The translations under genes were made by a program, and so were the position numbers. From a virus (taxonomy: Duplodnaviria > Caudoviricetes), in IMG/VR virus record IMGVR_UViG_3300030098_005273, positions 1 through 54,759 of that record: 54,759 nucleotides of DNA. One strand, given 5' to 3'. The notes under the pieces are model-generated. The model was not told where the DNA came from, ran no database searches, and worked only from the letters and a program-made list of their open reading frames with translations. The first letter of the stretch is position 1, and every line of letters begins with the position of its first letter. This document shows positions 2,245 through 42,978 of this stretch, piece after piece.

Positions 2245-2354
2245 TATAACCTCCTCATATAAGTCTGAAGGGCTTTAACTCCAAAATATATTAATACAAT
2301 CTCTGCAAACGACCTTATTATATATATAAAATCATAAAATATTGGTATATCCAT
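2244..2354 (-). CDS. Small hydrophobic protein (36 aa, not in ORF track)
   Basis: AAAGGAGG RBS; MDIPIFYDFIYIIRSFAEIVLIYFGVKALQTYMRRL; TAATG overlaps at both ends. Confidence 0.65.
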   Translation of the reverse strand: MDIPIFYDFIYIIRSFAEIVLIYFGVKALQTYMRRL

Positions 2355-2485
2355 TATTTCCCTCCTTTGTATACTACAATAGGCTTAGTTTCTTTCATCC
2401 AGTCTAGTATTTCTTTAACCACACTATCTGGTGAATTACCTTCAACAATTACTTTTGACACTAAGTGCCTGAATTTAACATTCAT
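2354..2485 (-). CDS. Small hypothetical protein (43 aa)
   Basis: AAGGAG upstream of ATG 2485 (MNVKF); the ORF-track extension to 2536 runs into the tmRNA-like RNA. Confidence 0.65.
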   Translation of the reverse strand: MNVKFRHLVSKVIVEGNSPDSVVKEILDWMKETKPIVVYKGGK

Positions 2486-2511
2486 ATGCTTCTCCTTATA
2501 TTTAAAATGAG

Positions 2512-2590
2512 TGGAGTTGGTGGGAATCGAACCCACGTCCTACTATAATACTCTTTCGAGTCTTAGAATAGTCGAAAACCATTCAACCCC
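2512..2590 (-). ncRNA. tmRNA-like RNA consisting only of the tRNA-like domain (mini-tmRNA, 79 nt)
   Basis: GGGGTTG-AATGGTTTTCGA-CTATTCTAAGACTC-GAAA-GAGTATTATAGTAG-GAC-GTGGG-TTCGATT-CCCAC-CAACTCC-A. 7-bp acceptor stem with G3.U wobble and A discriminator; stemless tmRNA-type D-loop ending TTCGAC; GGAC-T arm as at tmRNA 3' ends; CCA not encoded. Confidence 0.85.
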
Positions 2591-2595
2591 TATTT

Positions 2596-2880
2596 GGGTA
2601 CATAAACTGAGACTATGTTTATATACTAGAGAACCTTTGGAAGACTTATTGGTTATCTTCTTTGTCCACTATGTGTTGCCACACAGTAATTCTCCAAACT
2701 CAGTAGTTATAGACTACCACACTTATCGAGTCAGGTCGCTCAACAGTTAATCAATCCTAAGCAGAGTAGCGAGCTCTGAATAAGTTCTTTCACCATTAAA
2801 CATACAAACCTTGACAGGTCAATATGCACTCTATTCACCGAAGTGTAGAGTTTTAGAGTCCTTTGCTCCTTCCTCGCATT
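2596..2880 (-). ncRNA. Large structured ncRNA candidate (RNA-B) abutting the mini-tmRNA
   Basis: ACTCTA-CAC-TTCG-GTG-AA-TAGAGT (cUUCGg); CAGAG-CTCGCTA-CTCTG with loop complementary to downstream AGCGA; ACTGTGTG-GCAA-CACATAGT; terminal TATATAAAC-ATAGTCTCA-GTTTATGTA. Confidence 0.65.
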
Positions 2881-2934
2881 GTCAATTTGTCTTTTTTATC
2901 TATTCATATTATTTACTTTTAGTTAATAGTATTA

Positions 2935-3380
2935 ATTAGAGGGTTAGGTGGCTGCGAGACGACAATGTTGCGGCTTACCAATCTTTTGGACTAGTAAATA
3001 CCACACTCGCATCCTTCATATAATGTCTGGTGAACATAAATATAAGATGTTTCAGGCATGCTTACTCTCTCTTACCTCTCGATAAGACAGTAACCTTAAC
3101 AATGGAACACGACCTATGCACCACACAGCGGCCTAAATTCCTACCCTTTTGATCTATTGAATGTCACCATTCTCAACTCGACTCCCACATCAAGTATTAC
3201 TCAGTCACACCTCATCAGCGTTTGCCACAAAGGCATGAACAAGTAACGATAGGGCTTGCATTGGTAGACCATTTCTGGCGCCTATAATCCATTAATTAAT
3301 TGAATTGGACTTCGACTTTCACCTATTACTAGGCTTATCCTTGTGTTTTATATGCGATACAATACTACCACATAATTCTT
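2935..3380 (-). ncRNA. Large structured ncRNA candidate (RNA-A), possibly GOLLD/ROOL-like
   Basis: GNRA hairpins CCTA-GTAA-TAGG, CCA-GAAA-TGG, GAATG-GTGA-CATTC, CTTATC-GAGA-GGTAAG; nested GCGAG-TGTGG..TACTAGTC-CAAAA-GATTGGTA..CCGCA..CTCGC; long-range AGGGTAGG/CCTAACCCT; no ORF. Confidence 0.65.
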
Positions 3381-26211: not shown

Positions 26212-29160
26212 ATGGCAGCAAGTTTAAAAGCTATAAGACAAATGTGGAAAGAGGGGCAAAATCAAATCCAATCGGATTTAAAAGACGATTTGTCTCAACT
26301 TAGTAATGCTACGGCTGCTATTACTCAAATAGCTGGTTTAGCTCAAGATATCTCTAAGGATAAAAAAGAAAAGAAAGAGTTAGATGAATTCGCTAAGAAA
26401 AACGACTTAGAATATAATGAGAGAACAGGCAAATACTACGGAATAGATAAAAACAATCCTAAGGGCGATATGATTGAAGTAGATGCAAGTTATATGAAGG
26501 CTCTAAAGGATAATCCTTCTTTATATGAAGATTCTGCAAGAGATATGCTATTCAAAGAAGATGGAACTCTAAGAAAGCAATTTAAAGCTGGAAAGGATTT
26601 TAGTGCAGATGTAAAAAAAGATGGTATTACAGGTTTATTTCAAAGAATAATACCTGGTGGAGATAGTGGTTATGAAACGATAGGTCAGCATGATGTTAGG
26701 AAAGAGCTAACTCAATATAAAGATTGGGTTTACGGCACAGGAGATTTTGAAAGAAAACAAACTAAGAATCCAGACTACGATCCAGACATGGCAGGTAAAT
26801 ATGTTGTGCAAAAATCTAAAGACGATCCTACTCTAATAGAGGCTACAGATGGTGGAGGAATACTTTATGAATCTCTAGTTCCTGAGTTTAATGTTACGGG
26901 AGGGCCTGCATATACTACGGGAGGCGGATTAGATACGAGCAAGTTTTATGACAGGATAACAGGGCAACAAGATTCTGATACTGGATTCCAATCGCTATTT
27001 ACTAAAAAAGACGATATTCCCGATTTTATGAAAGGAGCTTACGATAAAGCATCTGCTGAATTGCAAAGTGCTATTGATACAGGAAGGTTCAGCAATACTC
27101 TTAAGCTTTTAGGAGACGAGCCTAAAGATTATACAAGAAAAATAGATGCTCAAGGAAATATTGTTGAGGAAGCAGACTGGGAAAGACTTGCTAGCGATTT
27201 AAATGAATGGCAAGGCTATCAACCAGGTGACGAATTAAATGTCACTGCAGAAGGATTAAAGTCTCTTGTTAGTGATATGGACGATGCTGCAATAGAAAAA
27301 TGGATGAGATATTCCCCAGAAATGATTGATAAGGTTAATGTAGGTGGATTAAAAGGTCTTGGACAAAGAATTGTTCCAGGTGGAGAAAGTGGCAAAGAAT
27401 ATGACGATAGGGCTAGAATAAATGCTGCTTTAGGAGTGCTCTACAATGTTGAAAATAGAGAAGATTGGACTATTGAAGACCATCTGATGATGGGTGATGA
27501 TACATTACAAGATTTTTATGAGCATTTTGTCCCTACTGAAGCTGATAAAAAGGAGCTTGCTAGAAATAAAAGAGCTCATGAGGAACAAATGGAGGTTGAA
27601 GACTCACTTACGAAATTAGCTGAACAAATGGATTTAGTAGAGGCGAATAAAAAAGCAGAGCAAGAATGGCTAATAAAAACTGAGAAAGAACTTGATGTTA
27701 GGAATAAAGAGTGGGAAGCAGATTTTCTAGATCCAGAAAAATCAGGATTATGGAAAAATAATTACTTAAGAGATGAAGACATGTGGTCTTTTAATAGGTT
27801 AGTTGAAAGTCATCCTTCTTTTAAAGATTCTGATTATTATAAAGCTAGACCAGGCGTTAGAGAAAGAGATGAAGCTATCGCTTCTATTCCTACAGGAATT
27901 AATCCATTTCAAAGAAAGAAAGAGATTGAAAGAATTAATAAGGAATTTATTGATACCTATGGAGACTTGAAGATTGAAGATATAAAAGCTATGAATGCTT
28001 ACAAAAAATATGAAGCAGATCAGGCAGAAGAAAATAGGCTTAGAGAGGAAGAGGAGAAAAGACAGCTTCAAATTAAAAAAGCTGAGGAGGAGCAGAGAAG
28101 AAGGGAATATGTCCCATCAGATGAACATATCAAGAAATTAGAAAATTTAAGTAAAGATATTTACAATCAAGCAAGCGTATTCAAGCAAGTTGATTATGGA
28201 TTAAATATTACTACTGATCAGGTTGGCGAAGCTGTAGATTATGGTATAGATTTAGGTAAAGATATAGGACTTTCTCTTAGGAATCAATTCACTCAACCAT
28301 TTAGCTCTCCTTCAGGACCCTATGGAACTAATATGCCTCAATACTATATGGGTAATTCAGCAGCAAGTGATAAGGATGATAAAAAAGCTCCTCGATACTA
28401 TATGGGTGATGCTAATAATTCAGCTATATCAGGCTCTAAATCTAATGATGTAGTTGGGCCTGAGGACGATACTATGTTCGCTATAATTAAAGGAGAGCTG
28501 TCAAAAGTAACTCCTGCAGAACATAAATATATACAAGAACATGGTGAAAAAGGGGCAAACCATATCTATGAAGTAGCTAAAGCGCATGCTAAAAAAATAG
28601 GTATTGATACAGACAATCCTAAGGAATGGCCTATACGAGGAGATGATGATAAGCCTTATTATTGGTTTGCAGAAGCAATGGGTGCTGTTCAATGGATAGG
28701 TGGAGCGTTCGGAAAGGCTAAGGCTGCTAAAAAAGAAGTCAAACATATTCAAAACAATGTTTTGCCTGCTTTAGGTAAGGCTGCAATGGATACGAGTCAA
28801 GAAGGGATACAAATGGCTGATAAGTTTCAGGAAGAAAAGGATATGTTATTAGATCAAGCAGCAGATCAGGTTGCAGATCAAGCTGACGATATTGCCGAAA
28901 AGCAAGGAGAGATGTTTAAAAAGACAGGTGGATTGAAAGTTGGAGCTGTTCAAAATTTTGGAGAAAAAGCTATGGACGTAATTACAGATAAGTTTGACCA
29001 AGTGTCTGATAATATAGCTTTCCAATTTAAAGATAAAATGGAAGGTATGAGAGACAAGATAGGAAGTGGGCTTGAAGAGATAGGTATGTCTGTTAAGTCT
29101 GCTGTAGATAGAATGAATGCAATGAAAAAGAAAAGAAAGTGGTATAAAAACCTATTTTAG
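26212..29160 (+). CDS. Putative internal virion (ejection) protein
   Basis: 982 aa with no Cys, helical, C-terminal pilot-protein-like segment; located after the nozzle gene. Confidence 0.65.
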   Translation: MAASLKAIRQMWKEGQNQIQSDLKDDLSQLSNATAAITQIAGLAQDISKDKKEKKELDEFAKKNDLEYNERTGKYYGIDKNNPKGDMIEVDASYMKALKDNPSLYEDSARDMLFKEDGTLRKQFKAGKDFSADVKKDGITGLFQRIIPGGDSGYETIGQHDVRKELTQYKDWVYGTGDFERKQTKNPDYDPDMAGKYVVQKSKDDPTLIEATDGGGILYESLVPEFNVTGGPAYTTGGGLDTSKFYDRITGQQDSDTGFQSLFTKKDDIPDFMKGAYDKASAELQSAIDTGRFSNTLKLLGDEPKDYTRKIDAQGNIVEEADWERLASDLNEWQGYQPGDELNVTAEGLKSLVSDMDDAAIEKWMRYSPEMIDKVNVGGLKGLGQRIVPGGESGKEYDDRARINAALGVLYNVENREDWTIEDHLMMGDDTLQDFYEHFVPTEADKKELARNKRAHEEQMEVEDSLTKLAEQMDLVEANKKAEQEWLIKTEKELDVRNKEWEADFLDPEKSGLWKNNYLRDEDMWSFNRLVESHPSFKDSDYYKARPGVRERDEAIASIPTGINPFQRKKEIERINKEFIDTYGDLKIEDIKAMNAYKKYEADQAEENRLREEEEKRQLQIKKAEEEQRRREYVPSDEHIKKLENLSKDIYNQASVFKQVDYGLNITTDQVGEAVDYGIDLGKDIGLSLRNQFTQPFSSPSGPYGTNMPQYYMGNSAASDKDDKKAPRYYMGDANNSAISGSKSNDVVGPEDDTMFAIIKGELSKVTPAEHKYIQEHGEKGANHIYEVAKAHAKKIGIDTDNPKEWPIRGDDDKPYYWFAEAMGAVQWIGGAFGKAKAAKKEVKHIQNNVLPALGKAAMDTSQEGIQMADKFQEEKDMLLDQAADQVADQADDIAEKQGEMFKKTGGLKVGAVQNFGEKAMDVITDKFDQVSDNIAFQFKDKMEGMRDKIGSGLEEIGMSVKSAVDRMNAMKKKRKWYKNLF

Positions 29161-33336: not shown

Positions 33337-36300
33337 ATGGCTGAAAGATATAATAGACTTGAAGAATTAGAAAAATTAATGAGTCAATCAGTTGTGCCTG
33401 ATGATTCAGAACCTATAGAACAGGAGCCTGAGACAGATGATGCAGGATTGATTGATATACCAAAGCCTTATGGAGGGTATGATAATGCTCCATATAGTGG
33501 CAATGATGAGGTTTGGGGAGGTCTTATGCAGCTATATACCCCAGGTACCGATATGCGTGCTACTAAAAGAAAAAGGATGGTTGATTTAAGGAATTATGAT
33601 TTTAGCGCAGAGGGATGGGTTGCACCTGAACCTGAACTTATAGATCCAGGTGGTGAAGAAATATTTGATGAACACGGATTTTGGACAGGAGAAGTTACTC
33701 AACCTACATATACAGATGTAAGCGGTATTGTAGCGCCTACCCCAAAACCTTATGCTGGTAAAAATAGACAAGTTCTCGCAAATCCAGAAGGAGAAGAAGG
33801 ATGGTATTTAGGTAAGAATTTAATTGACCTTGTAGGTAATACTGTGTGGGGAATTGCTGAAGGATTTGGAGCATGGGTCCCAGATATGGCTTCTGGCGGT
33901 GAAATGTCCAAGTTTATGGGTTCTGATGATTGGGCTGATGAAAGTATATGGGGTAAAATAGGTTACAGTGTTGGTACTGGTTTAAGTATGCTTTTTGGTA
34001 TAGGATTGGTTGGAAAAGGACTTCAATGGGGTAGTAAAGCTTTTGGGTTTGGAGTAAAAGCTGCAACTAAAAGTGTTGCAGACGATCTTACAGAGTATGT
34101 TGCAAAAACAAGTATAAAAAAGGGTGGAGTAGAAAAGCTTGTTAAGTCAGCTAGAGCTCAGATTCAAGCAGGTAAAAAGGAAGCTTTAAAAGGCGTAACA
34201 TGGGGGGCACGATTAACTCCTATGAATAGAGCTGCAGCTTTAGCTAGAGGTAATCCTTTATCAAATGAAAAGGTTTATAAAAGTGTATATGACAGCATCA
34301 AAAAAGACCTCAATAAAAAATTAGGTTTAAATTTAGATGATGCAGCTGTAGATAAAGTTACTAAAAAAATAATGGAAGAATCTAGTAACTCACTGCATAA
34401 GCATTTTGGGCACAGTATAGGGCATATAATGGCAGAAAAAGGTCTTAGTTCTGGAAAGGCTAAAATATTATCAGATATGGTCTATGAGGCTGTATTATTG
34501 TCTGCTTATGATGGAATAATGGATATGGGTATGGATTTATGGGCTCAATCTTATATCGATGGAGATGATGTAACTGCTAAGTCAAACATACAACAAGGTT
34601 ACGAATTTACAGAATGGTGGAAGCCGTTTTTTCACGGTGCGGTAACTGGTAGTTTTTTAGGTATGGTAAGGCATATTAAAGGTGGTAAAAAAGTCGATTT
34701 AATGGGTCAAAGTGGAAATCGTAGCGGTATGATAAATGATTTAGGTATAATGAGAAAAGCTATAATGCTTAGGCTTAGAAATGTAAATAATATGGGTGAT
34801 AGACAAATGACAGGATTTTTAAACACCTTATTTCATGCCTCTGATGGAGCTATAATTAAAGATTTGCAAAAGATTGCTACAGAACACGGTCTTCAAAATG
34901 TAGGTAAATTAGGCCGAACATTCTTAGAGAAAATATCTCAACAAGGGTATAAATATACTAAAGCCGATAAGCAGATACTTAGAGAGACTATGACAGCTAT
35001 ACAGAAAACTGTTTTAGGGAAAAATGGTCTTTTAGCTAAGACAGCTGCAGAAATAAGAAAAGATGCAATAGGTTCTTTCGGAAGAGCTACATTAGGCTCA
35101 ATTGTTATGGCTGGATGGGGATATTATGATATGGGTGAGAAAGGACTGCTTCCTTGGCAAACTGATGAAGCAACTAAAAAAGCAGGATATCATCCAGATC
35201 AAAAAGTAACATGGGACAAGCTATTTTTTGACCATATAGTTGGCATGTTTTACATGAAACGTGGTAAGAATGCTGAGACTAATAGTAGATTTTTTTATGA
35301 AGTTATGGGTGATAAACCTATACTGGGTAGTGAAGTTGGAAGAATGTCAAAAGCTATGGAAATATTTGGATATAAAGATTCACAGCTTCAAATTTTCAAC
35401 CATATGGCTCACAGTGAACCTGGAACTGCAATTATGAGAGCAAGTGCTTTAAAGGGTATATATGCAGATAAAGAAATTGTAGGTGTTATTGATAAAATGG
35501 GGGCAGACTTAGTTGATGCTCAGCAATATATAGAGATAGTAAAAAGGACAAATGTAGAAGGTGTTGATCCTAGCGAAAGAGTAGATAATTGGCATGTCCA
35601 TGTTAAAGACCATCTATCTAACTTAGAAACAAAGATACGAGATGCTAAGAAAAAAGGTGATACAAAAGAGCAGGCTAAGCTTGAGAAAGAGCAAATGGAA
35701 GTTCATGATGCAATGCTATTTACTGAAAAGATACAAAGGCTTACCCTGTTTGATATTAATAATAAATCTGTAAGACCTATGACCAGAAAGGATGCATTAA
35801 ACTTTATTCAAAAATATAAAGAGATAACTCTTTCTGATGGGGCTAAAATAAATGTTAATAACTTTGACGTATTAGACAGAATGATAGAAGATGGAGCTTT
35901 TCAATTTACAAGAAAAGTTGAAAATGTAGGTCTAGACTTTATATTTGAGTCTTTAGAAATTCTAGACTTAATTGACCCTACGAATATGACAAAGGGTGCA
36001 AAGATTAATAAAAGCACTTTAAATGCATTAGAGGCAATACTTACTTCCAATACAGGAGGAGAGAAAGGCGTTACAGATAAAATATATGAAACAGCTTACG
36101 CTTTAAGAGAGGCTATGCTTCAAGCTAATAAAGTTGGATTAATAGAGCTTTCTGATGCTGAAGGAAGGGTTTGGGATGCAGGTAGAAAATATAATGCTAA
36201 AGAATTAGCCGAGCTTCAAAGAAAATGGAATGATAAGACGGAAGAAATGCACGAACTTGTATTTAACACTATGGGAGTAGAGAGTAGTTGGAGAGCTAAG

Positions 36301-39300
36301 ATTACAGGATTCCAAGAAGGAGATGGAAGATTTCAAGATAATTATATGTTAGGCTCTACACCTATATGGCACTCTATACAGTCTTCTCATATACATAAAA
36401 GAAATGCTGGCACTATGAGAGCTTTAACTGGAAAAGACGCTAAAGGTCAAGAGTTAGATTATTTTAATAAGATTCAAAAAATGTTAGCAGGTAAGGAAGG
36501 TTTTGAAATAGTATCTGATCAAGGTGGAGTTATTGAATTTGCATCTGAAAAGCAATCTGAGTTTTTAGGTAATTTTAATTCCGCTATGAAAATGCTTCAA
36601 GGTGGTCAAGGAAAAGGATTAAAGAAAATTACTATATCAGAACTAGAGGCTCTTATGAATGAAAGCTATACTATAGGTGGTAATGTTTTTCAGAATACTA
36701 CCGAATTTATGGCATTTAGAAGCTTTCTAAATAGAAGTTTTGTAGAGAGTTTAACAGGGAATAAAGATTTATCCGTGCAGCTAAGGGCTGCTTTGACTAC
36801 TTTAATTTCAAATGACAATTTATTAGTTGTAAGATTAGGTAATCAAGTAAAAATCAGAGACTCTAAATCTCTTGAAGCTATTTTAATGAAAAACGCTAAT
36901 ACTATGACTGAGGTAGAGCTTAAAACTATTACAGAGATGCTAGAAACTTATAGAAAAGATTTTGAAATACCTATGAGAAATGCTTTAGGTAAAACAAATC
37001 AAGCTTTAATCAAGTTTGGCGATGGTAAAATGGTAATGGATCAAGAATTATCTAATTTTAATGTTAATGATATTAAGCAAATGATAACTGAAATTAATAT
37101 TGAGGTTAATAAAAAGAGCTTATTTCAAATCCAAGAGTTTTCTTTTAATGCTGAAAAGCTAAGAGTTAATGTTGCAGACTTGCAAAGCAAGGCAAGTGAA
37201 TATGTAGAGAGAGCTGGATTAGGAGAAGTTACTAAAGAAATGAAACAAGCTATAAAAGACGTATTTGATAGCTATACTAATTTTGAAGCACTTCTGACTC
37301 ATTATCATAATACAAATGATGTTATGGGGCTACAGAAACTTACAGAAAAAGCTGAAATGATGCATATGATAAATAGAAAAGGCGAAAGTTGGAACGGAAA
37401 AGATATAAATTCTATTAGGGAGATTAAAACTCTCTTAGATACCTATGTGAAAGAAGTTAGAGTTGAAAGAGATCAAGCATTAAGACTTGATGAAACTTCT
37501 GATTTAGATGCATATGAAGCAGAGCAGATGGCAGGTTTTAATTTCGATAGAAGTGGAAGAATTAAAAAAGGGTCAGTAACAGTTAGCAAGAGTCAGTATG
37601 AAACAAAATGGAATCTTGAGAAAGACTTTATGGACACCTTGGTCGAGACTCCTAAAACTGCTATGAAAGGATTAGGTCTTTCAGGATTAAATTCTCATGT
37701 CGACTTACATTCTCCTGTAGATGGTGTTACTAAGACTAAATATAAAGATTTAATGGAAAAGGGTTTAGTAGAGCTAAATAAGGGTAATTTTACTGAACGA
37801 GATTTTATCGACATAGTTATTAAACCTTTTGTTAATGCTAAAAGTAAGGAAATAGAGCAAAGAATTAAGGCAGATAAGGAAGTTGGGGGAACTGTAGAAG
37901 AGTTTATACAAGATACTCATGCAATAGTTCAGTCTATGCTATCTACTAAAAAAGGCTTGATGGGTACATTTGAAAATGGTTCTTTAAATATTAAGCAGAC
38001 AACCTTTTCTAATTGGGATAGAGGTGTAAATAGATTAGAGAATGTTTTAGGCTTAGAAGGTCAAATAATAACTTTAGCTCAAAGGGTTGGAACTAGCCAA
38101 GGATATTCTAGTAAACTTTCTCCAGAATTAATCGCTCATATGGAAAGCATTATGTCTGGAAAAGGCACTTGGTTTAATCCAGATGTTTCAGAAGTTTTAA
38201 AATCCCAAGATGTTCAATTCTTAGAGTCTATAAAAGATATGGCTTTAGGAACAGGAAATGATGGTAGGGCAAAATTTGTACCGATAAGATTAGATGAAAA
38301 AAGTATGATTTTAATATCTTTTGCAGGTAGAGGACAAGTTTTAGACGCATGGGCTGATCCATCAGGGAAATTGAGAAAAAAATTAGTAGATGTTGTAGCT
38401 GCAGGAAGTGGATGGTGGACTAGTAAAAGTAAGGCAGAGTCTCTTGTAAATAAATATCTTTCTGAGAATTTAAAAGCGGGTGTTGACGGGAAGGGTATTA
38501 TAGATAATACAAATCCTAATATAGGAGATATACAGACACTTGTATTATTAACTAGAATACTTGAGTCTCCTATGGCTTCAAATATGGCTGCGCTTATAAA
38601 AGGTAATAAAGATATGTTTTCTGCTATTCAAGAAGCAAAATATTTAAAATTAGATAGCCCTAAAAATGGTAAAGCTTTAAGTGAAAGAAATTTAAAGTTT
38701 ACTAAGGAGTATGGAGATGCTTTATATGAACAAGGTTCAGATATGCACAAGCTTCATCAGATATTTAAAGAAAGGACATTTAATGAGGATGGTACTTTAA
38801 AGAAACATAGAACTGTAAATATATTAGATGAAAGTGGAGCTAATAGTAAAAATCACTTTAGTACTGAAAAATTAATGGGAGAAGGTCTTCGAGAGCAAAT
38901 AAAAAGAGATAATCCTGACTTAGATAAGAATCAGATTGAAAAAAGAATGGAAGAATATCAAGAACAATACAAGAGGATTCAAGCTTCTGCTATGAACGGG
39001 GAAAAGTATTTAAGCAGAGATGCTATGATACAAATGTTAATGGCAAACGGTGCAACAAAAGATTGGTTTATATGGGGAGATGTTTTAGATACCTCGGGTA
39101 ATGTTGTAGGAAAAGAAGTTGTTGGTTTTAATGTAGCTTTAAAGCCTATAGAGATGCATCATTCAGTTGAAGCAGATGGGACTATGTCTTTTCATATAGG
39201 TAAAACTGCGTACAAATATCATCCATTAATGGACAAGTTGATGAGATATAGAAGTGGAGATAAGGCAGGTAGTTATATTGTAGAATCAATAGGTTTTGAA

Positions 39301-42300
39301 AGCTCCCATAAAGTTCATGCTAAATTTACACCAGGAATGAACAGTATAGAGAAAACTGGATATGATTTACCTGCAGGTGAAAACAAGGGTAAGTTTTTTG
39401 GCTTTATGGAGAAAAATTCAGACCATGTTAGAGATGGTATAAATATACATAGAATGAATCTTGATTTAGAGTCTATTATGATTAAGTCTGTATCATCTAA
39501 TAAAGATGCAGTTGTATCTTCGGGATTTACTACGTTCATGTCTTCTTCAGGGGTAAAATCTTTAAATATGGCTACAGGTTTAAAGGCTACTACTAAATCT
39601 TTAATGGATCAATTTGCTAATTTATCGCAAAGTCCTTGGGCTTATAAGGATATTATATCTCAGATAAAGAATTATAACAAAGAAACTGGAGACAATATAA
39701 CAGGACTATTTGGAATAGATGCTGTTTTAAACGCTAATGGCTTACCTATCTTTGAATACATGATGCCTCAAATACAAAAAGTAGTGGTTTCTGACCACAT
39801 GGGTACAAGAAACGCAGTAAGCTCAAATCTTGCAAAAGGTAGCAATAATGTTATGACAGCTGGTGATGGATATAGTTTTGCAGAAAGAAGAGGAGGCGTT
39901 CAATATAAATTTGGAGGCTCTGGAATGTCTGGTTATGAGGCAGGAAAAAGTGTTAGAGACTTCTTTACTAAGACAGCTGATGGAAAAATAGTTCCTAGTG
40001 GAGTAGAAGGTCTTAATCTTATATTTAAAGTAACTCCCGAATTAGCTAAAAAGTTTAGAGATATAGGCATAGAGGCTGGAGTAGATATAGCTGTTGTTTT
40101 TGATGCAACGACCGCCTCAGGCATTAGAGTGCTAGGTCCACATATAAGAGATGGATTTGGAAACAGAAAGACTAATAAAGCTAGGATTGAAGAATTCGAG
40201 ACTCAAATGGAAAATTCTTATAAAGAAATCATGAAAGAGCTTTATAAAGAATATACTAAGTATAATGATATGACTGTAGGTGAGTTAACTTATTTATTGG
40301 CTGGAGGTAGTGTAAGAGAATATAGAGATGGAAGAATGGAGTTTAAAGATACTAATTTAAGCTCTATAGTAGAAGGTGCACCAAATGGATTTTCTCCTGG
40401 AATACTATCAAATATAGGCTCAGGAGCCAACTTTAGATCTGTCCACTTAGGTAAAACAGACTTAAGAACTCCTAAGATAGGATTGAATGATTTTGTTATG
40501 ACTAGAGTTGAGAAAACTTTAGATAAAAGAAGAGGTCCTGTAAGTGAGATGAATTTAAAGGATGTATTAGATCCGCAAGATGCAGATTTTGATTTAGATA
40601 AATCTTCAAGTATGCATGCATTGCCTGGAAGAACGTTAGCTGATATATACTCTATGTCAGGCTATATGACTCATTCACAAAAAGCATTTGAAACTGCTTT
40701 AAATGAAGTAAGACTTGATAATCATGGCTCTATACAGCAATATACTAATACATTACAGCAGATAGAAGGATTAAGAGCTGGGCTAATGAGGCAGAATTCA
40801 ATATTGTCTACAATGTTAATGCATTTTTCAGCAAAAGAAACTACAGGCAATCCTCTATTTAGACCTGGTCAAGGTAAGCAGGCTCCTAGCGATGTGAGTG
40901 TTGATCCAAGATTTCAATTAACGACTTTTATGGTAGGTAATAAGGAGTATAAAATATCTATTCGTGAAGGTGGTGATTTAGCAAGTTCAATTGGCTATAT
41001 GAAAAATCTTATAAAGGCTACAATTGATATATATAAGAAGCCTCAAGATGTTACTGGCAAAGAATTAGACAAGCTTATTTGGGAGAATTTTGAAAATGGA
41101 TTTCTTCAGATAACCGAAGTGAATTCTAAAGGTAAAGCTACAAAAATAGATTATGCTAAAGCTAATAAAGAAGTTAGAGAAAAGTTTAATCATATAAGAG
41201 ATAAAATATTAAAGCCTGTAGGAGAGCTTCATAATTTACAGCATATGACTGAGCACTTTGCAGATGGAACATCTAGAAGAATGAGTCCTCAAGAATTGGT
41301 TTATAAGTATGAAAAGATATTAACCGATATTCATTTTGCAGGGAAGGATGCTAAGTTAGATGCAAATAATAAAATAATATCGTTTAAAAACAATGATTTT
41401 GCAGCTCTTACTAGTGAATTATTAAGCTTTTTAGGTGGTGGTAAAAATGCAAAAAATATGGTTATAGACTCACACCCAATGCCTGTAGTTCAAGTATTGA
41501 TGTCTTTAAAGAAAGGAATGAGTAGTCCTTTTGGAGATGCCTCTCTTGATTATGGTATAGGCACATTAATGATGACAGAGAATCTTTCTCAAACTAAAAT
41601 GACAGAGTCTATAAGTAAAATGCTAAGTAATCAAAAAGCTTTAGCTAGTATACATATAGCTCAGTCAAGATTAGATGGTATTAAATCTATTATGGAAAAC
41701 TATGAACGTAGTGGCAGAAAGGGTTCAGATCAATATGTTTATTGGGAAGTACAGGCAAAAACTATTGAAAGAGTTATTAATGAATTCAACAGACAGGTAA
41801 GTGACCCTACGTTTACTTTCGGTAACGGATTAAAGGCGGCTAAAAGGCAAGATGGTAGCAAGTATGTAAATGATGTTACTTTTATTTATAGAGGGCAGTA
41901 CGACACTAATGGAAAGTTTAAATCTGCTCAAGTTGTAAGAAGAGCAAATCCTGGAGAACTTATTTATTGGAAAAAGGGTGATGTAGTAGTAACCAATCCT
42001 AAGAGAATAGAGGCTGGAAATGACCATATAAATAAAGTTAGAAGAGCTGAAGCTTCTGCATTTGGAAGAGTTCTATTAGGTCAAGATGGAAACATCCTAG
42101 CTCTTGAAAAGCTTGTTAAAGACTTTAGCAATAAAGTTAGGGAGATTCCAAATGAATTAATAGACCCGAATTCTCCCATGACTAGCGATAAGTTTAATAT
42201 GATAAATGAATTTGAGCTTAGATATGTAGCAGATATAGTTGATGCTGCTATGTCTATAGGAGGAAAGCAATCAGCACAACAAGTTTTGATGATGCTAATG

Positions 42301-42978
42301 ACTCCTAGGCTTAAAGAAAATGTTTTCAATATATCTGGATACAATGTTCATCAAAAATCTGCTGCTTTAAGCACCACCTATCAAAGCAATAAGCGTAATG
42401 AAAGAATGGTATTATCTTATTTAGAAAGAGCTATGAATGGAAAAGCATCTACAACCTTAGAGGCTACTCAAGCTAGAGAAATATACGAATGGATGAATAC
42501 TGAGTTTAAAAAGGCATTTGTAAAGCAATGGGATCCAACAAGGCAGGGAGATATATTTACCTTTCAACAAAATAATAGAAGAGTTGAGGATTTCTCTTTA
42601 TTAAATCCACTAAACGACATTCCCTCATTTATGACAAGTAAGGAGATTACAAAGAAAAGTAGAGAAGTTATGCAGGCTTATTTAACTGGAACTTATTTTA
42701 TGGATCCTGCAGCTTTATACAGATTTACATTAGGTATGAAAGGAGCTGAATATAAAGATGGTACTTGGAATATCCCAGGCGGGAGAAAGATGCATAATGT
42801 GATAGAAGGTATGTGGGAAGGAACTAGCGGAAGACATATAAATGGAGATGGAGGTATATATATACCTAATAGCGTGTTTAGAAAGTCAGACCCTAACTTT
42901 GTTAGAAGACAAAATAAGGATTCTGAAGGTATAGGTGCTGGTATAGAGAAAATAGAAAGTCAATGCTTTGGAAATTAA
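33337..42978 (+). CDS. Giant virion protein with two-barrel (crAss-like) RNA polymerase domain
   Basis: 3213 aa; DADFDLD at aa 2415-2421 (nt 40579-40599), upstream RTP motif, and KTAYK / ESSHKV Lys motifs; located in the ejection-protein block. Confidence 0.75.
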   Translation: MAERYNRLEELEKLMSQSVVPDDSEPIEQEPETDDAGLIDIPKPYGGYDNAPYSGNDEVWGGLMQLYTPGTDMRATKRKRMVDLRNYDFSAEGWVAPEPELIDPGGEEIFDEHGFWTGEVTQPTYTDVSGIVAPTPKPYAGKNRQVLANPEGEEGWYLGKNLIDLVGNTVWGIAEGFGAWVPDMASGGEMSKFMGSDDWADESIWGKIGYSVGTGLSMLFGIGLVGKGLQWGSKAFGFGVKAATKSVADDLTEYVAKTSIKKGGVEKLVKSARAQIQAGKKEALKGVTWGARLTPMNRAAALARGNPLSNEKVYKSVYDSIKKDLNKKLGLNLDDAAVDKVTKKIMEESSNSLHKHFGHSIGHIMAEKGLSSGKAKILSDMVYEAVLLSAYDGIMDMGMDLWAQSYIDGDDVTAKSNIQQGYEFTEWWKPFFHGAVTGSFLGMVRHIKGGKKVDLMGQSGNRSGMINDLGIMRKAIMLRLRNVNNMGDRQMTGFLNTLFHASDGAIIKDLQKIATEHGLQNVGKLGRTFLEKISQQGYKYTKADKQILRETMTAIQKTVLGKNGLLAKTAAEIRKDAIGSFGRATLGSIVMAGWGYYDMGEKGLLPWQTDEATKKAGYHPDQKVTWDKLFFDHIVGMFYMKRGKNAETNSRFFYEVMGDKPILGSEVGRMSKAMEIFGYKDSQLQIFNHMAHSEPGTAIMRASALKGIYADKEIVGVIDKMGADLVDAQQYIEIVKRTNVEGVDPSERVDNWHVHVKDHLSNLETKIRDAKKKGDTKEQAKLEKEQMEVHDAMLFTEKIQRLTLFDINNKSVRPMTRKDALNFIQKYKEITLSDGAKINVNNFDVLDRMIEDGAFQFTRKVENVGLDFIFESLEILDLIDPTNMTKGAKINKSTLNALEAILTSNTGGEKGVTDKIYETAYALREAMLQANKVGLIELSDAEGRVWDAGRKYNAKELAELQRKWNDKTEEMHELVFNTMGVESSWRAKITGFQEGDGRFQDNYMLGSTPIWHSIQSSHIHKRNAGTMRALTGKDAKGQELDYFNKIQKMLAGKEGFEIVSDQGGVIEFASEKQSEFLGNFNSAMKMLQGGQGKGLKKITISELEALMNESYTIGGNVFQNTTEFMAFRSFLNRSFVESLTGNKDLSVQLRAALTTLISNDNLLVVRLGNQVKIRDSKSLEAILMKNANTMTEVELKTITEMLETYRKDFEIPMRNALGKTNQALIKFGDGKMVMDQELSNFNVNDIKQMITEINIEVNKKSLFQIQEFSFNAEKLRVNVADLQSKASEYVERAGLGEVTKEMKQAIKDVFDSYTNFEALLTHYHNTNDVMGLQKLTEKAEMMHMINRKGESWNGKDINSIREIKTLLDTYVKEVRVERDQALRLDETSDLDAYEAEQMAGFNFDRSGRIKKGSVTVSKSQYETKWNLEKDFMDTLVETPKTAMKGLGLSGLNSHVDLHSPVDGVTKTKYKDLMEKGLVELNKGNFTERDFIDIVIKPFVNAKSKEIEQRIKADKEVGGTVEEFIQDTHAIVQSMLSTKKGLMGTFENGSLNIKQTTFSNWDRGVNRLENVLGLEGQIITLAQRVGTSQGYSSKLSPELIAHMESIMSGKGTWFNPDVSEVLKSQDVQFLESIKDMALGTGNDGRAKFVPIRLDEKSMILISFAGRGQVLDAWADPSGKLRKKLVDVVAAGSGWWTSKSKAESLVNKYLSENLKAGVDGKGIIDNTNPNIGDIQTLVLLTRILESPMASNMAALIKGNKDMFSAIQEAKYLKLDSPKNGKALSERNLKFTKEYGDALYEQGSDMHKLHQIFKERTFNEDGTLKKHRTVNILDESGANSKNHFSTEKLMGEGLREQIKRDNPDLDKNQIEKRMEEYQEQYKRIQASAMNGEKYLSRDAMIQMLMANGATKDWFIWGDVLDTSGNVVGKEVVGFNVALKPIEMHHSVEADGTMSFHIGKTAYKYHPLMDKLMRYRSGDKAGSYIVESIGFESSHKVHAKFTPGMNSIEKTGYDLPAGENKGKFFGFMEKNSDHVRDGINIHRMNLDLESIMIKSVSSNKDAVVSSGFTTFMSSSGVKSLNMATGLKATTKSLMDQFANLSQSPWAYKDIISQIKNYNKETGDNITGLFGIDAVLNANGLPIFEYMMPQIQKVVVSDHMGTRNAVSSNLAKGSNNVMTAGDGYSFAERRGGVQYKFGGSGMSGYEAGKSVRDFFTKTADGKIVPSGVEGLNLIFKVTPELAKKFRDIGIEAGVDIAVVFDATTASGIRVLGPHIRDGFGNRKTNKARIEEFETQMENSYKEIMKELYKEYTKYNDMTVGELTYLLAGGSVREYRDGRMEFKDTNLSSIVEGAPNGFSPGILSNIGSGANFRSVHLGKTDLRTPKIGLNDFVMTRVEKTLDKRRGPVSEMNLKDVLDPQDADFDLDKSSSMHALPGRTLADIYSMSGYMTHSQKAFETALNEVRLDNHGSIQQYTNTLQQIEGLRAGLMRQNSILSTMLMHFSAKETTGNPLFRPGQGKQAPSDVSVDPRFQLTTFMVGNKEYKISIREGGDLASSIGYMKNLIKATIDIYKKPQDVTGKELDKLIWENFENGFLQITEVNSKGKATKIDYAKANKEVREKFNHIRDKILKPVGELHNLQHMTEHFADGTSRRMSPQELVYKYEKILTDIHFAGKDAKLDANNKIISFKNNDFAALTSELLSFLGGGKNAKNMVIDSHPMPVVQVLMSLKKGMSSPFGDASLDYGIGTLMMTENLSQTKMTESISKMLSNQKALASIHIAQSRLDGIKSIMENYERSGRKGSDQYVYWEVQAKTIERVINEFNRQVSDPTFTFGNGLKAAKRQDGSKYVNDVTFIYRGQYDTNGKFKSAQVVRRANPGELIYWKKGDVVVTNPKRIEAGNDHINKVRRAEASAFGRVLLGQDGNILALEKLVKDFSNKVREIPNELIDPNSPMTSDKFNMINEFELRYVADIVDAAMSIGGKQSAQQVLMMLMTPRLKENVFNISGYNVHQKSAALSTTYQSNKRNERMVLSYLERAMNGKASTTLEATQAREIYEWMNTEFKKAFVKQWDPTRQGDIFTFQQNNRRVEDFSLLNPLNDIPSFMTSKEITKKSREVMQAYLTGTYFMDPAALYRFTLGMKGAEYKDGTWNIPGGRKMHNVIEGMWEGTSGRHINGDGGIYIPNSVFRKSDPNFVRRQNKDSEGIGAGIEKIESQCFGN

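What the first reader, a model, noticed from the sequence alone, without database searches (positions are those of the whole stretch)
2512..2590. Mini-tmRNA: intact alanylatable tRNA-like domain with the whole mRNA-like domain replaced by a GAAA tetraloop
Seen: both canonical tmRNA termini (GGGGTTGAATGGTTTTCGAC and GGACGTGGGTTCGATTCCCACCAACTCCA) in normal, non-permuted order. They are joined only by a 14-position helix (12 pairs, 2 mismatches) capped by CTC-GAAA-GAG. The G3.U alanine identity pair and A discriminator are intact; there is no D-stem, anticodon loop, pseudoknot or tag frame. Established: the TLD is the part charged by AlaRS and bound by SmpB and EF-Tu; bacterial tmRNAs are about 350 nt, and MLD-less forms are known to me mainly from some protist mitochondria. 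The neat tetraloop cap argues for selection, not decay. Inference: (i) an SmpB decoy blocking host trans-translation; (ii) tag-free rescue of stalled ribosomes that spares phage proteins from SsrA proteolysis; (iii) a decoy for tRNA/tmRNA-targeting toxins; or (iv) an RNase P processing element maturing RNA-B.
Basis: partly seen in the sequence, partly recalled or inferred. Interest (0 to 1): 0.92.

Follow-up and report, generated by a model that had tools for sequence, protein, structure and literature searches.

The report
Phage mini-tmRNA trailing a GOLLD RNA
A marine phage carries a real, conserved 79-base gene for only the alanine-accepting end of the bacterial ribosome-rescue RNA (tmRNA); this type is already known from one mycobacteriophage, but here it sits directly behind a giant cage-forming GOLLD RNA.

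Summary
Window 2590..2512 (minus strand) is a tmRNA tRNA-like domain with the messenger part replaced by a GAAA-capped hairpin (Rfam tmRNA 62.3 bits; ARAGORN calls nothing).

It is not a one-off. One strict pattern scan of viral contigs gave 54 loci (47 other distinct sequences) with the same 69-94 nt architecture. Helices covary strongly, G3.U70 is present in 47 of 48 and discriminator A in 48 of 48.

It is not new in kind. The 'TLD only' tmRNA of mycobacteriophage DS6A is in print and scores 61 bits with my model. The cited work says such a molecule inhibits host tmRNA, perhaps by titrating SmpB. This scan has also reported phage mini-tmRNAs before on other DNA.

That is the slot where 12 of 65 other GOLLD contexts carry a tRNA, mostly Met.

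Side result: 38 of 90 GOLLD-bearing viral records also carry a tmRNA (36 full-length, 2 mini), against 1 of 76 control records.

Most likely it is cut out by RNase P, charged with alanine, and competes with host tmRNA for SmpB and stalled ribosomes.

The parts
2512..2590 (-). Mini-tmRNA (tRNA-like domain only), G1 at 2590 to discriminator A79 at 2512
   Evidence: Rfam RF00023 62.3 bits; own covariance model R1 78.1 bits; fold
2584..2590 (-). Acceptor stem 5' strand (G1-G7), with G3 of the G3.U alanine identity pair
   Evidence: family counts G1-C 48/48, G2-C 48/48, G3.U 47/48
2572..2583 (-). D-loop analogue without a D stem, ending in the sheared G-A of the GAC/GGAC junction
   Evidence: Rfam alignment; conserved in the family alignment. 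The UCGAC part was imposed by my search pattern
2540..2571 (-). Helix 2a, internal loop and a 4-bp stub capped by GAAA. This replaces the whole mRNA-like domain and all pseudoknots
   Evidence: fold; helix 2a covaries in the family; the connector is a single hairpin in 47 of 48
2520..2536 (-). T arm (5 bp, 7-nt loop)
2513..2519 (-). Acceptor stem 3' strand
2509..2511 (-). 3' trailer CUC. CCA is not encoded and would have to be added after trimming
   Evidence: CCA is encoded in 21 of 48 family members
2591..2603 (-). 13-nt spacer between the GOLLD 3' end and G1 of the mini (presumed RNase P leader)
   Evidence: other GOLLD loci have 7-18 nt spacers before a tRNA
2604..3013 (-). GOLLD RNA conserved 3' domain
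   Evidence: Rfam RF02032 173.4 bits, model 1-416
3014..3376 (-). GOLLD 5' (variable) domain, approximate extent
   Evidence: metatranscriptome contigs of 4 runs from 4 studies cover about 2605-3376 and stop at 3343-3376
2354..2488 (-). First downstream ORF (44 aa, no known family). Its start codon is 23 nt after the mini's discriminator, with an AAGGAG ribosome-binding site

Best explanation
This is a functional phage gene for a TLD-only tmRNA of the same family as the published DS6A 'TLD only' tmRNA. It is transcribed leftward as the 3' extension of the GOLLD RNA precursor. RNase P cutting at G1 would free it and at the same time form the GOLLD 3' end; 3' trimming and CCA addition would complete it (inferred). 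Host AlaRS would charge it through the G3.U70/A73 identity set, and it would bind host SmpB, since no phage copy exists (inferred from conserved elements). Lacking any template, it would compete with host tmRNA for SmpB, EF-Tu and stalled ribosomes. The expected result is that phage-infected cells stop adding SsrA degradation tags.
For: Identity: Rfam tmRNA 62.3 bits end to end.

Family: 54 viral loci from one pattern scan share the architecture and all are 69-94 nt.

Selection: 98.3% of cells are paired against 75.5% in shuffles. The covariation score is 0.566 against 0.109 (0 of 500 shuffles reach it) and at most 0.083 when partners are slid. The three variable helix 2a pairs each show 28-30 double changes.

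Nearest relative: L006/L080 differs from the window's mature RNA only by a compensatory C5-G to U5-A change, while its proteins are about 35-46% identical.

Charging elements not imposed by my pattern: G3.U70 in 47/48 and discriminator A in 48/48.

SmpB and tmRNA content: no phage SmpB in 0 of 48 records, and no full-length tmRNA in any of 47 mini-bearing records.

Precedent: DS6A carries an 83-nt member at 28478-28560 (R1 61.1 bits). Passages in PMC4131195 and PMC11915505 state that a similar molecule strongly inhibits tmRNA in E. coli, perhaps by titrating SmpB.

Processing context: the mini starts 13 nt after the GOLLD end, which is the slot of a tRNA in 12 of 65 unique GOLLD 3' contexts.
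Against: There is no direct evidence here that the mini is made, cut, charged or bound. The host is unknown. The primary paper (Mao et al. 2009) is not held, so I read only sentences that cite it. Those sentences say inhibition did not need chargeability, yet the alanine identity set is kept in nearly all family members. That fits a role needing aminoacylation, such as ribosome entry or tag-free rescue, better than a pure SmpB sponge. Part of the family's apparent conservation was imposed by my pattern (UCGAC, GGACG, T arm) and by my filter (at least 6 of 7 acceptor pairs).
Confidence: 0.55

Rival explanations
1. Tag-free ribosome rescue. The charged mini, with host SmpB and EF-Tu, enters stalled ribosomes and accepts the nascent chain. 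The chain is then released without a degron (by drop-off, a peptidyl-tRNA hydrolase or an alternative rescue factor). Ribosomes are recycled during infection and phage proteins are spared.
For: G3.U70 in 47/48, discriminator A in 48/48 and CCA encoded in 21/48 all point to selection for aminoacylation. 19 of 54 minis lie within 1.5 kb of same-strand phage tRNA genes, as if part of the phage translation set. CDS-less tmRNAs of organelles are thought to work this way (passage in PMC11915505).
Against: No release factor-like (RF-1 domain) or peptidyl-tRNA hydrolase gene is in the window, so release would depend on the host. How a ribosome leaves a template-less peptidyl-TLD state is unknown. The only cited experiment on a similar molecule showed inhibition, not rescue.
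Confidence: 0.25
2. It is mainly a processing signal. A tRNA-shaped RNase P/3'-end site defines the 3' end of GOLLD and the 5' end of the downstream mRNA, and the excised RNA has no job of its own.
For: The 13-nt spacing matches the 7-18 nt spacing of tRNAs behind GOLLD in 12 of 65 unique contexts; Rfam confirmed the GOLLD ends in 12 of 12 tested. RNA contigs of two studies end at 2605 and 2618, near the GOLLD 3' boundary; this is a weak hint, and no DNA run was laid for comparison. An earlier scan note (e1-6047153) reads tRNA mimics behind GOLLD the same way.
Against: The same mini (97.6% identical) sits in an unrelated phage without GOLLD, between an ORF and a tRNA-Met. 0 of 47 other mini-bearing records have GOLLD. 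RNase P does not need the G3.U70 pair or the tmRNA-type D loop, and any tRNA would do the job.
Confidence: 0.1
3. It is a decoy or substitute substrate for host defence nucleases that cut tRNA or tmRNA.
For: Only general knowledge that phages carry tRNAs to counter tRNA-cleaving defences (recalled). A phage protein that co-purifies with cut tRNA and tmRNA pieces exists (AcrIIIA1, passages in PMC11662646).
Against: No nuclease or anti-defence gene was recognised beside it: 10 neighbouring ORFs have no PHROG function. The mini lacks the anticodon loop and the single-stranded messenger region, which are the usual cut sites.
Confidence: 0.05
4. It is a decaying ssrA remnant, an attP core, or an assembly deletion.
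For: Phages often integrate into ssrA and carry its 3' end (general knowledge; passages in PMC10865867).
Against: Both halves are present and pair. The family covaries. No integrase is in the window. An independent contig carries the same 82 nt, and several DNA runs hold the 2-kb stretch.
Confidence: 0.02

Closest known systems
'TLD only' (no CDS) tmRNA of Mycobacterium phage DS6A (tmRNA Website; Hudson, Lau and Williams 2014, PMC4131195; PMC11915505; Mao et al. 2009, not held)
   Same: Same architecture: acceptor stem with G3.U, D-loop analogue, helix 2a, A-rich internal loop, short capped stub, T arm, and no tag frame. It is 83 nt against 82 nt here. My family model scores it 61.1 bits, E 4e-16. 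CCA is not encoded in either.
   Different: Different phage type and host: a temperate actinophage with an integrase against an uncultured marine phage with no integrase. The DS6A copy stands between protein genes and is unannotated in GenBank. The window's copy directly trails a GOLLD RNA. Rfam scores DS6A below the cut-off (43.2 bits) and the window above it.
Bacterial tmRNA (SsrA), Rfam RF00023
   Same: Homologous tRNA-like domain, aligned end to end at both termini. It keeps helix 2a and what corresponds to the internal loop after helix 2a in the Rfam consensus.
   Different: No resume codon, tag reading frame, stop codon or pseudoknots. 303 model positions are replaced by 11 nt. It cannot act as a messenger.
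CDS-less organelle tmRNAs (jakobid mitochondria; about 65-bp plastid forms)
   Same: Reduced to the tRNA-like domain and presumed to work with SmpB (abstract of PMC3590771 seen in a listing; passage in PMC11915505).
   Different: Organelle genes of cellular lineages, not phage genes. I did not compare the sequences.
tRNAs that trail or are embedded in GOLLD RNA (Kretsch et al. 2025, PMC12286853; PMC12990946)
   Same: A tRNA-shaped RNA is linked to GOLLD on the same strand. Here the gap is 13 nt; in 12 other GOLLD contexts it is 7-18 nt.
   Different: Those are decoding tRNAs, mostly Met. Here the partner is a tmRNA-type, anticodon-less alanine acceptor.

Membership tests
tmRNA (functional definition: tRNA-like plus messenger) | 7-bp acceptor stem with G3.U70 and discriminator A73 (alanine identity) | tested here: met
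   family counts 47/48 and 48/48
tmRNA (functional definition: tRNA-like plus messenger) | T arm plus D-loop analogue without a D stem, GAC/GGAC junction and helix 2a | tested here: met
   Rfam alignment; helix 2a covariation
tmRNA (functional definition: tRNA-like plus messenger) | mRNA-like domain with resume codon, tag ORF and stop codon | tested here: not met
   Only 30 nt lie between the junction bases, and they fold as one hairpin. Rfam skips 303 model positions
tmRNA (functional definition: tRNA-like plus messenger) | Pseudoknots PK1-PK4 | tested here: not met
tmRNA (functional definition: tRNA-like plus messenger) | Alanylation, SmpB and EF-Tu binding | not testable with these tools
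   Needs biochemistry. No SmpB gene in the phage
Phage TLD-only tmRNA (DS6A type) | Phage-encoded, 70-95 nt, both tmRNA termini joined by a single hairpin | tested here: met
Phage TLD-only tmRNA (DS6A type) | Detectable homology to DS6A's copy through a shared family model | tested here: met
   R1 scores the window 78.1 bits and DS6A 61.1 bits. R1 was built with the window's sequence in it but without DS6A
Phage TLD-only tmRNA (DS6A type) | Inhibits host trans-translation | not testable with these tools
   Known only from sentences citing Mao et al. 2009
GOLLD RNA (the upstream neighbour) | Match to the conserved 3' domain, Rfam RF02032, above 150 bits | tested here: met
   173.4 bits, model 1-416

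The most novel reading that the evidence does not exclude
GOLLD and tmRNA form a functional module in phages. The GOLLD nanocage would act on, or together with, the host ribosome-rescue system. In this small phage the module would be reduced to GOLLD plus a tethered or co-released TLD. For example, a cage could carry up to 14 alanine-accepting SmpB-binding ends, or could deliver them to ribosomes that GOLLD binds. The basis is co-occurrence: tmRNA over the Rfam cut-off in 38 of 90 GOLLD-bearing viral records, against 0 of 28 and 1 of 48 GOLLD-negative control records. The tmRNA lies 0.8-3.3 kb from GOLLD in the 11 cases with both coordinates. I found no paper stating this link: the 6 papers holding both words do not by their titles or listed abstracts concern phage co-occurrence. 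I read passages of only one of them (PMC6582537), which did not mention it. The records are not phylogenetically independent, and GOLLD status was confirmed by Rfam for only part of them.
Probability: 0.2. Interest if true: 0.85.

Novelty: new member of a known kind. Interest (0 to 1): 0.5.

Why it matters
The mini itself adds one more member to a phage RNA class that is in print as a single example and that standard finders miss. ARAGORN gave no tmRNA call in 54 loci and one wrong tRNA call. The class looks widespread and under selection for alanine charging, which makes it a natural minimal system for asking what a tmRNA without a message does on the ribosome.

The more useful lead is the context. 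GOLLD's function is an open question, and here it is joined within 13 nt to a ribosome-rescue mimic. In other phages GOLLD sits within a few kb of a full tmRNA far more often than controls do. That gives a concrete, testable direction for GOLLD: trans-translation, SmpB and stalled ribosomes.

Tried and rejected
GenBank phages: blastn of 2400-3100 found no match. The large terminase has at most 25.6% identity to any cultured phage, so no host could be named.

Relatives cannot be drawn for a virus record.

PHROGs on 10 neighbouring ORFs gave no function.

SmpB (0 of 48 records), integrase, RF-1 domain and peptidyl-tRNA hydrolase (0 of 1 each) were not found.

GOLLD was absent from 47 other mini-bearing records, so GOLLD linkage is not a general property of minis. 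Two GOLLD loci (L287, L315) do hold a mini about 1 kb from GOLLD's estimated 5' end in L287.

A first GOLLD pattern built from the window gave 0 hits.

The genome-contig scan returned 115 stretches. Of the 80 listed, nearly all are 3' ends of ordinary full-length tmRNAs. Only about 5-7 look TLD-only by eye, so it gave no host.

RNA runs: the mini itself (2512-2590) is not covered by the contigs of the 4 laid runs. The exception is a 34-nt T-arm piece inside an unrelated contig. This says nothing either way for an 80-nt structured RNA.

Tag frame: I looked for a resume codon and stop in the connector, here and in relatives, and found none that is conserved.

Mao et al. 2009 and Morgado et al. 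2020 are not held. Supplements were not consulted.

'mini-tmRNA' occurs in 0 papers of the library. Other searches found only the DS6A mentions.

Full report
OBSERVATION. On the minus strand, 2590..2512 reads as the two canonical tmRNA termini in normal order, joined by a short hairpin. Rfam's tmRNA model matches from position 1 to 374 at 62.3 bits (E 5e-22, cut-off 47), with 303 internal positions replaced by 11 nt. ARAGORN reports no gene in the whole window. The fold has a 7-bp acceptor stem with G3.U, a 5-bp T stem with a 7-nt loop, and a connector of 12 pairs with 2 mismatches under a GAAA loop. The energy is -25.1 kcal/mol, z -2.3.

SETTING. The window is a whole viral record of 54,759 bp, estimated 95% complete, from marine metagenomes. 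It encodes small and large terminase subunits, a 3213-aa ORF, a DnaB-like helicase and an ERF recombinase. It has no integrase, no tRNA and no close cultured relative. Thirteen bases upstream of G1, on the same strand, ends a GOLLD RNA (Rfam RF02032, 173.4 bits, 3013..2604). Twenty-three bases after the discriminator, a 44-aa ORF with a good ribosome-binding site begins. No terminator-like site lies between GOLLD and that ORF.

FAMILY. One exact pattern (UCGAC, 15-45 nt, then GGACG and the T arm) found 93 viral stretches.
- 58 of these, plus the window, had at least 6 of 7 acceptor pairs in the right place. I rejected 4 by eye (L030, L031, L054, L072).
- The other 35 are mostly 3' ends of ordinary tmRNAs.
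- A covariance model built from the 48 distinct sequences separates 54 loci plus the window (at least 55 bits) from everything else.
- Members are 69-94 nt, median 81. The connector is a single hairpin in 47 of 48, and 31 of 48 have an AA(A/G) motif on its 5' side.
- That motif corresponds to the bulge after helix 2a in the Rfam tmRNA consensus.
- ARAGORN gave no tmRNA call on them and one wrong tRNA call.
- 19 of 54 lie within 1.5 kb of same-strand tRNA genes.
- In 47 of 47 records the best tmRNA match is the mini itself (40 over the cut-off) and none has a full-length tmRNA.
- 0 of 48 records encode SmpB.

SELECTION. On the model-fitted alignment:
- 98.3% of cells pair, against 75.5% in shuffles.
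- 173 cells show changes on both sides, against 50.8 in shuffles.
- The covariation score is 0.566 against 0.109 (0 of 500 shuffles reach it), and at most 0.083 when partners are slid.
- The three variable helix 2a pairs carry 28-30 double changes each.
- G1-C and G2-C are 48/48, G3.U is 47/48 and the discriminator A is 48/48. CCA is encoded in 21/48.

Caveats: UCGAC, GGACG and the T arm were fixed by the pattern. Acceptor pairing (not its letters) was my filter. The alignment leans towards the model.

The nearest relative, L006 = L080, is one phage (99.9% identical to each other). It shares only this RNA with the window at 97.6% identity, while the few detectable protein matches are about 35-46% identical. 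The two differences inside the RNA are a compensatory C5-G to U5-A change.

PRECEDENT. Passages in Hudson, Lau and Williams 2014 (PMC4131195) list 'Mycobacterium phage DS6A (TLD only)'. They state that a similar molecule, chargeable or not, strongly inhibits tmRNA, perhaps by titrating SmpB, citing Mao et al. 2009. The 2025 database paper repeats this (PMC11915505). I could not read Mao et al.. In the DS6A record, the unannotated stretch 28478-28560 scores 61.1 bits with my model and has the same internal-loop-plus-stub design. After I had reached this point, the scan's own notes showed that phage mini-tmRNAs were reported several times before on other DNA, with the same precedent.

THE GOLLD LINK. 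89 passed two further motif checks, and Rfam confirmed GOLLD and my predicted 3' ends in 12 of 12 tested.

Among 65 unique 3' contexts:
- 12 have a tRNA (10 Met) starting 7-18 nt after GOLLD.
- At least 26 have a terminator hairpin, by a crude script.
- 27 are other.

The window's mini, 13 nt after GOLLD, occupies the tRNA slot. In L080 the same mini is itself followed after 7 nt by a tRNA-Met.

Unexpectedly, GOLLD-bearing records often hold a tmRNA over the Rfam cut-off:
- 19 of 44 records.
- 16 of 37 records.
- 3 of 7 further GOLLD-positive records.
- 0 of 2 GOLLD-positive records in the control sample.
- Total 38 of 90: 36 full-length and 2 minis (L287, L315).

Controls gave 0 of 28 GOLLD-negative records from the same scan and 1 of 48 GOLLD-negative tRNA-bearing records. 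Where both positions are known (11 cases), the tmRNA is 0.8-3.3 kb from GOLLD.

Limits: GOLLD status of most of the 81 records rests on motifs. The records are fragments, and many may be related phages.

RNA EVIDENCE. Contigs of four metatranscriptome runs from four studies lie on about 2605-3376 only, at 90-99% identity. One ends at 2605 and one at 2618, and the 5' ends fall at 3343-3376. GOLLD-like RNA of this phage group is thus present in RNA libraries as a unit of about 770 nt ending just before the mini. This is a weak hint of 3' end formation there, because contigs cannot prove ends and no DNA run was laid.

MECHANISM. Shown: a conserved, covarying, tmRNA-derived alanine-type acceptor without a message. 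It is widespread in phages, and here it lies in a GOLLD transcript context.

Inferred: RNase P and 3' processing, CCA addition, alanylation and host SmpB binding.

I rank competition with host tmRNA first (0.55) because of the cited experiment. Tag-free rescue is second (0.25) because the alanine identity set is kept although the cited inhibition did not need charging. A pure processing signal is third (0.10), because the mini lives on without GOLLD elsewhere. A nuclease decoy (0.05) and a remnant or artefact (0.02) come last.

VERDICT. The feature is real and its anatomy was read correctly, but the kind is already known (DS6A) and was already met in this scan. The new elements are the direct GOLLD-mini junction and the GOLLD-tmRNA neighbourhood, which deserve a proper, tree-aware test.

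Noticed in passing
Rfam matches 2604-3013 at 173 bits, and metatranscriptome contigs of 4 studies span about 2605-3376.
   Followed up: yes
viral loci L212-L331 and their records (G048-G163): GOLLD-bearing viral records carry a tmRNA far more often than controls: 38 of 90 against 0 of 28 and 1 of 48. The tmRNA usually lies 0.8-3.3 kb from GOLLD. This is not corrected for relatedness of the phages.
   Followed up: partly
viral loci L212, L243, L245, L258, L265, L268, L311, L320, L322, L324 (and L232, L316): GOLLD 3' ends come in two forms: followed within 7-18 nt by a tRNA (10 of 12 are Met), or followed by a terminator hairpin. Seven of the 12 spacers share an AGCC-(A/T)(A/T)-ATA-like motif, and the window's spacer resembles it.
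   Followed up: partly
L287:1188-1270 and L315:7716-7798: Two GOLLD-bearing contigs unrelated to the window hold an 83-nt mini-tmRNA with UUGAC instead of UCGAC. In L287 it lies about 1 kb from GOLLD's estimated 5' end. The mini family is therefore wider than my search pattern.
   Followed up: partly
L095 (DS6A, JN698994) 28478-28560: The published DS6A TLD-only tmRNA is not annotated in the GenBank record. It lies between gp33 and gp34, and the phage also encodes an RtcB-like RNA ligase, gp76.
   Followed up: partly
They are not covered by contigs of the four RNA runs laid. Their nature is unresolved.
   Followed up: no
window 33337-42978, plus strand: A single 3213-aa ORF, the size expected of a virion-packaged giant protein, in a 55-kb phage. 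It was not analysed.
   Followed up: no
Genome-contig loci L110, L127, L157, L164: A few bacterial MAG contigs (Actinomycetota, Saccharibacteria, Achromobacter, Myxococcales) hold 72-84-nt TLD-only look-alikes. Whether they are prophage genes, assembly deletions or cellular genes was not checked.
   Followed up: no
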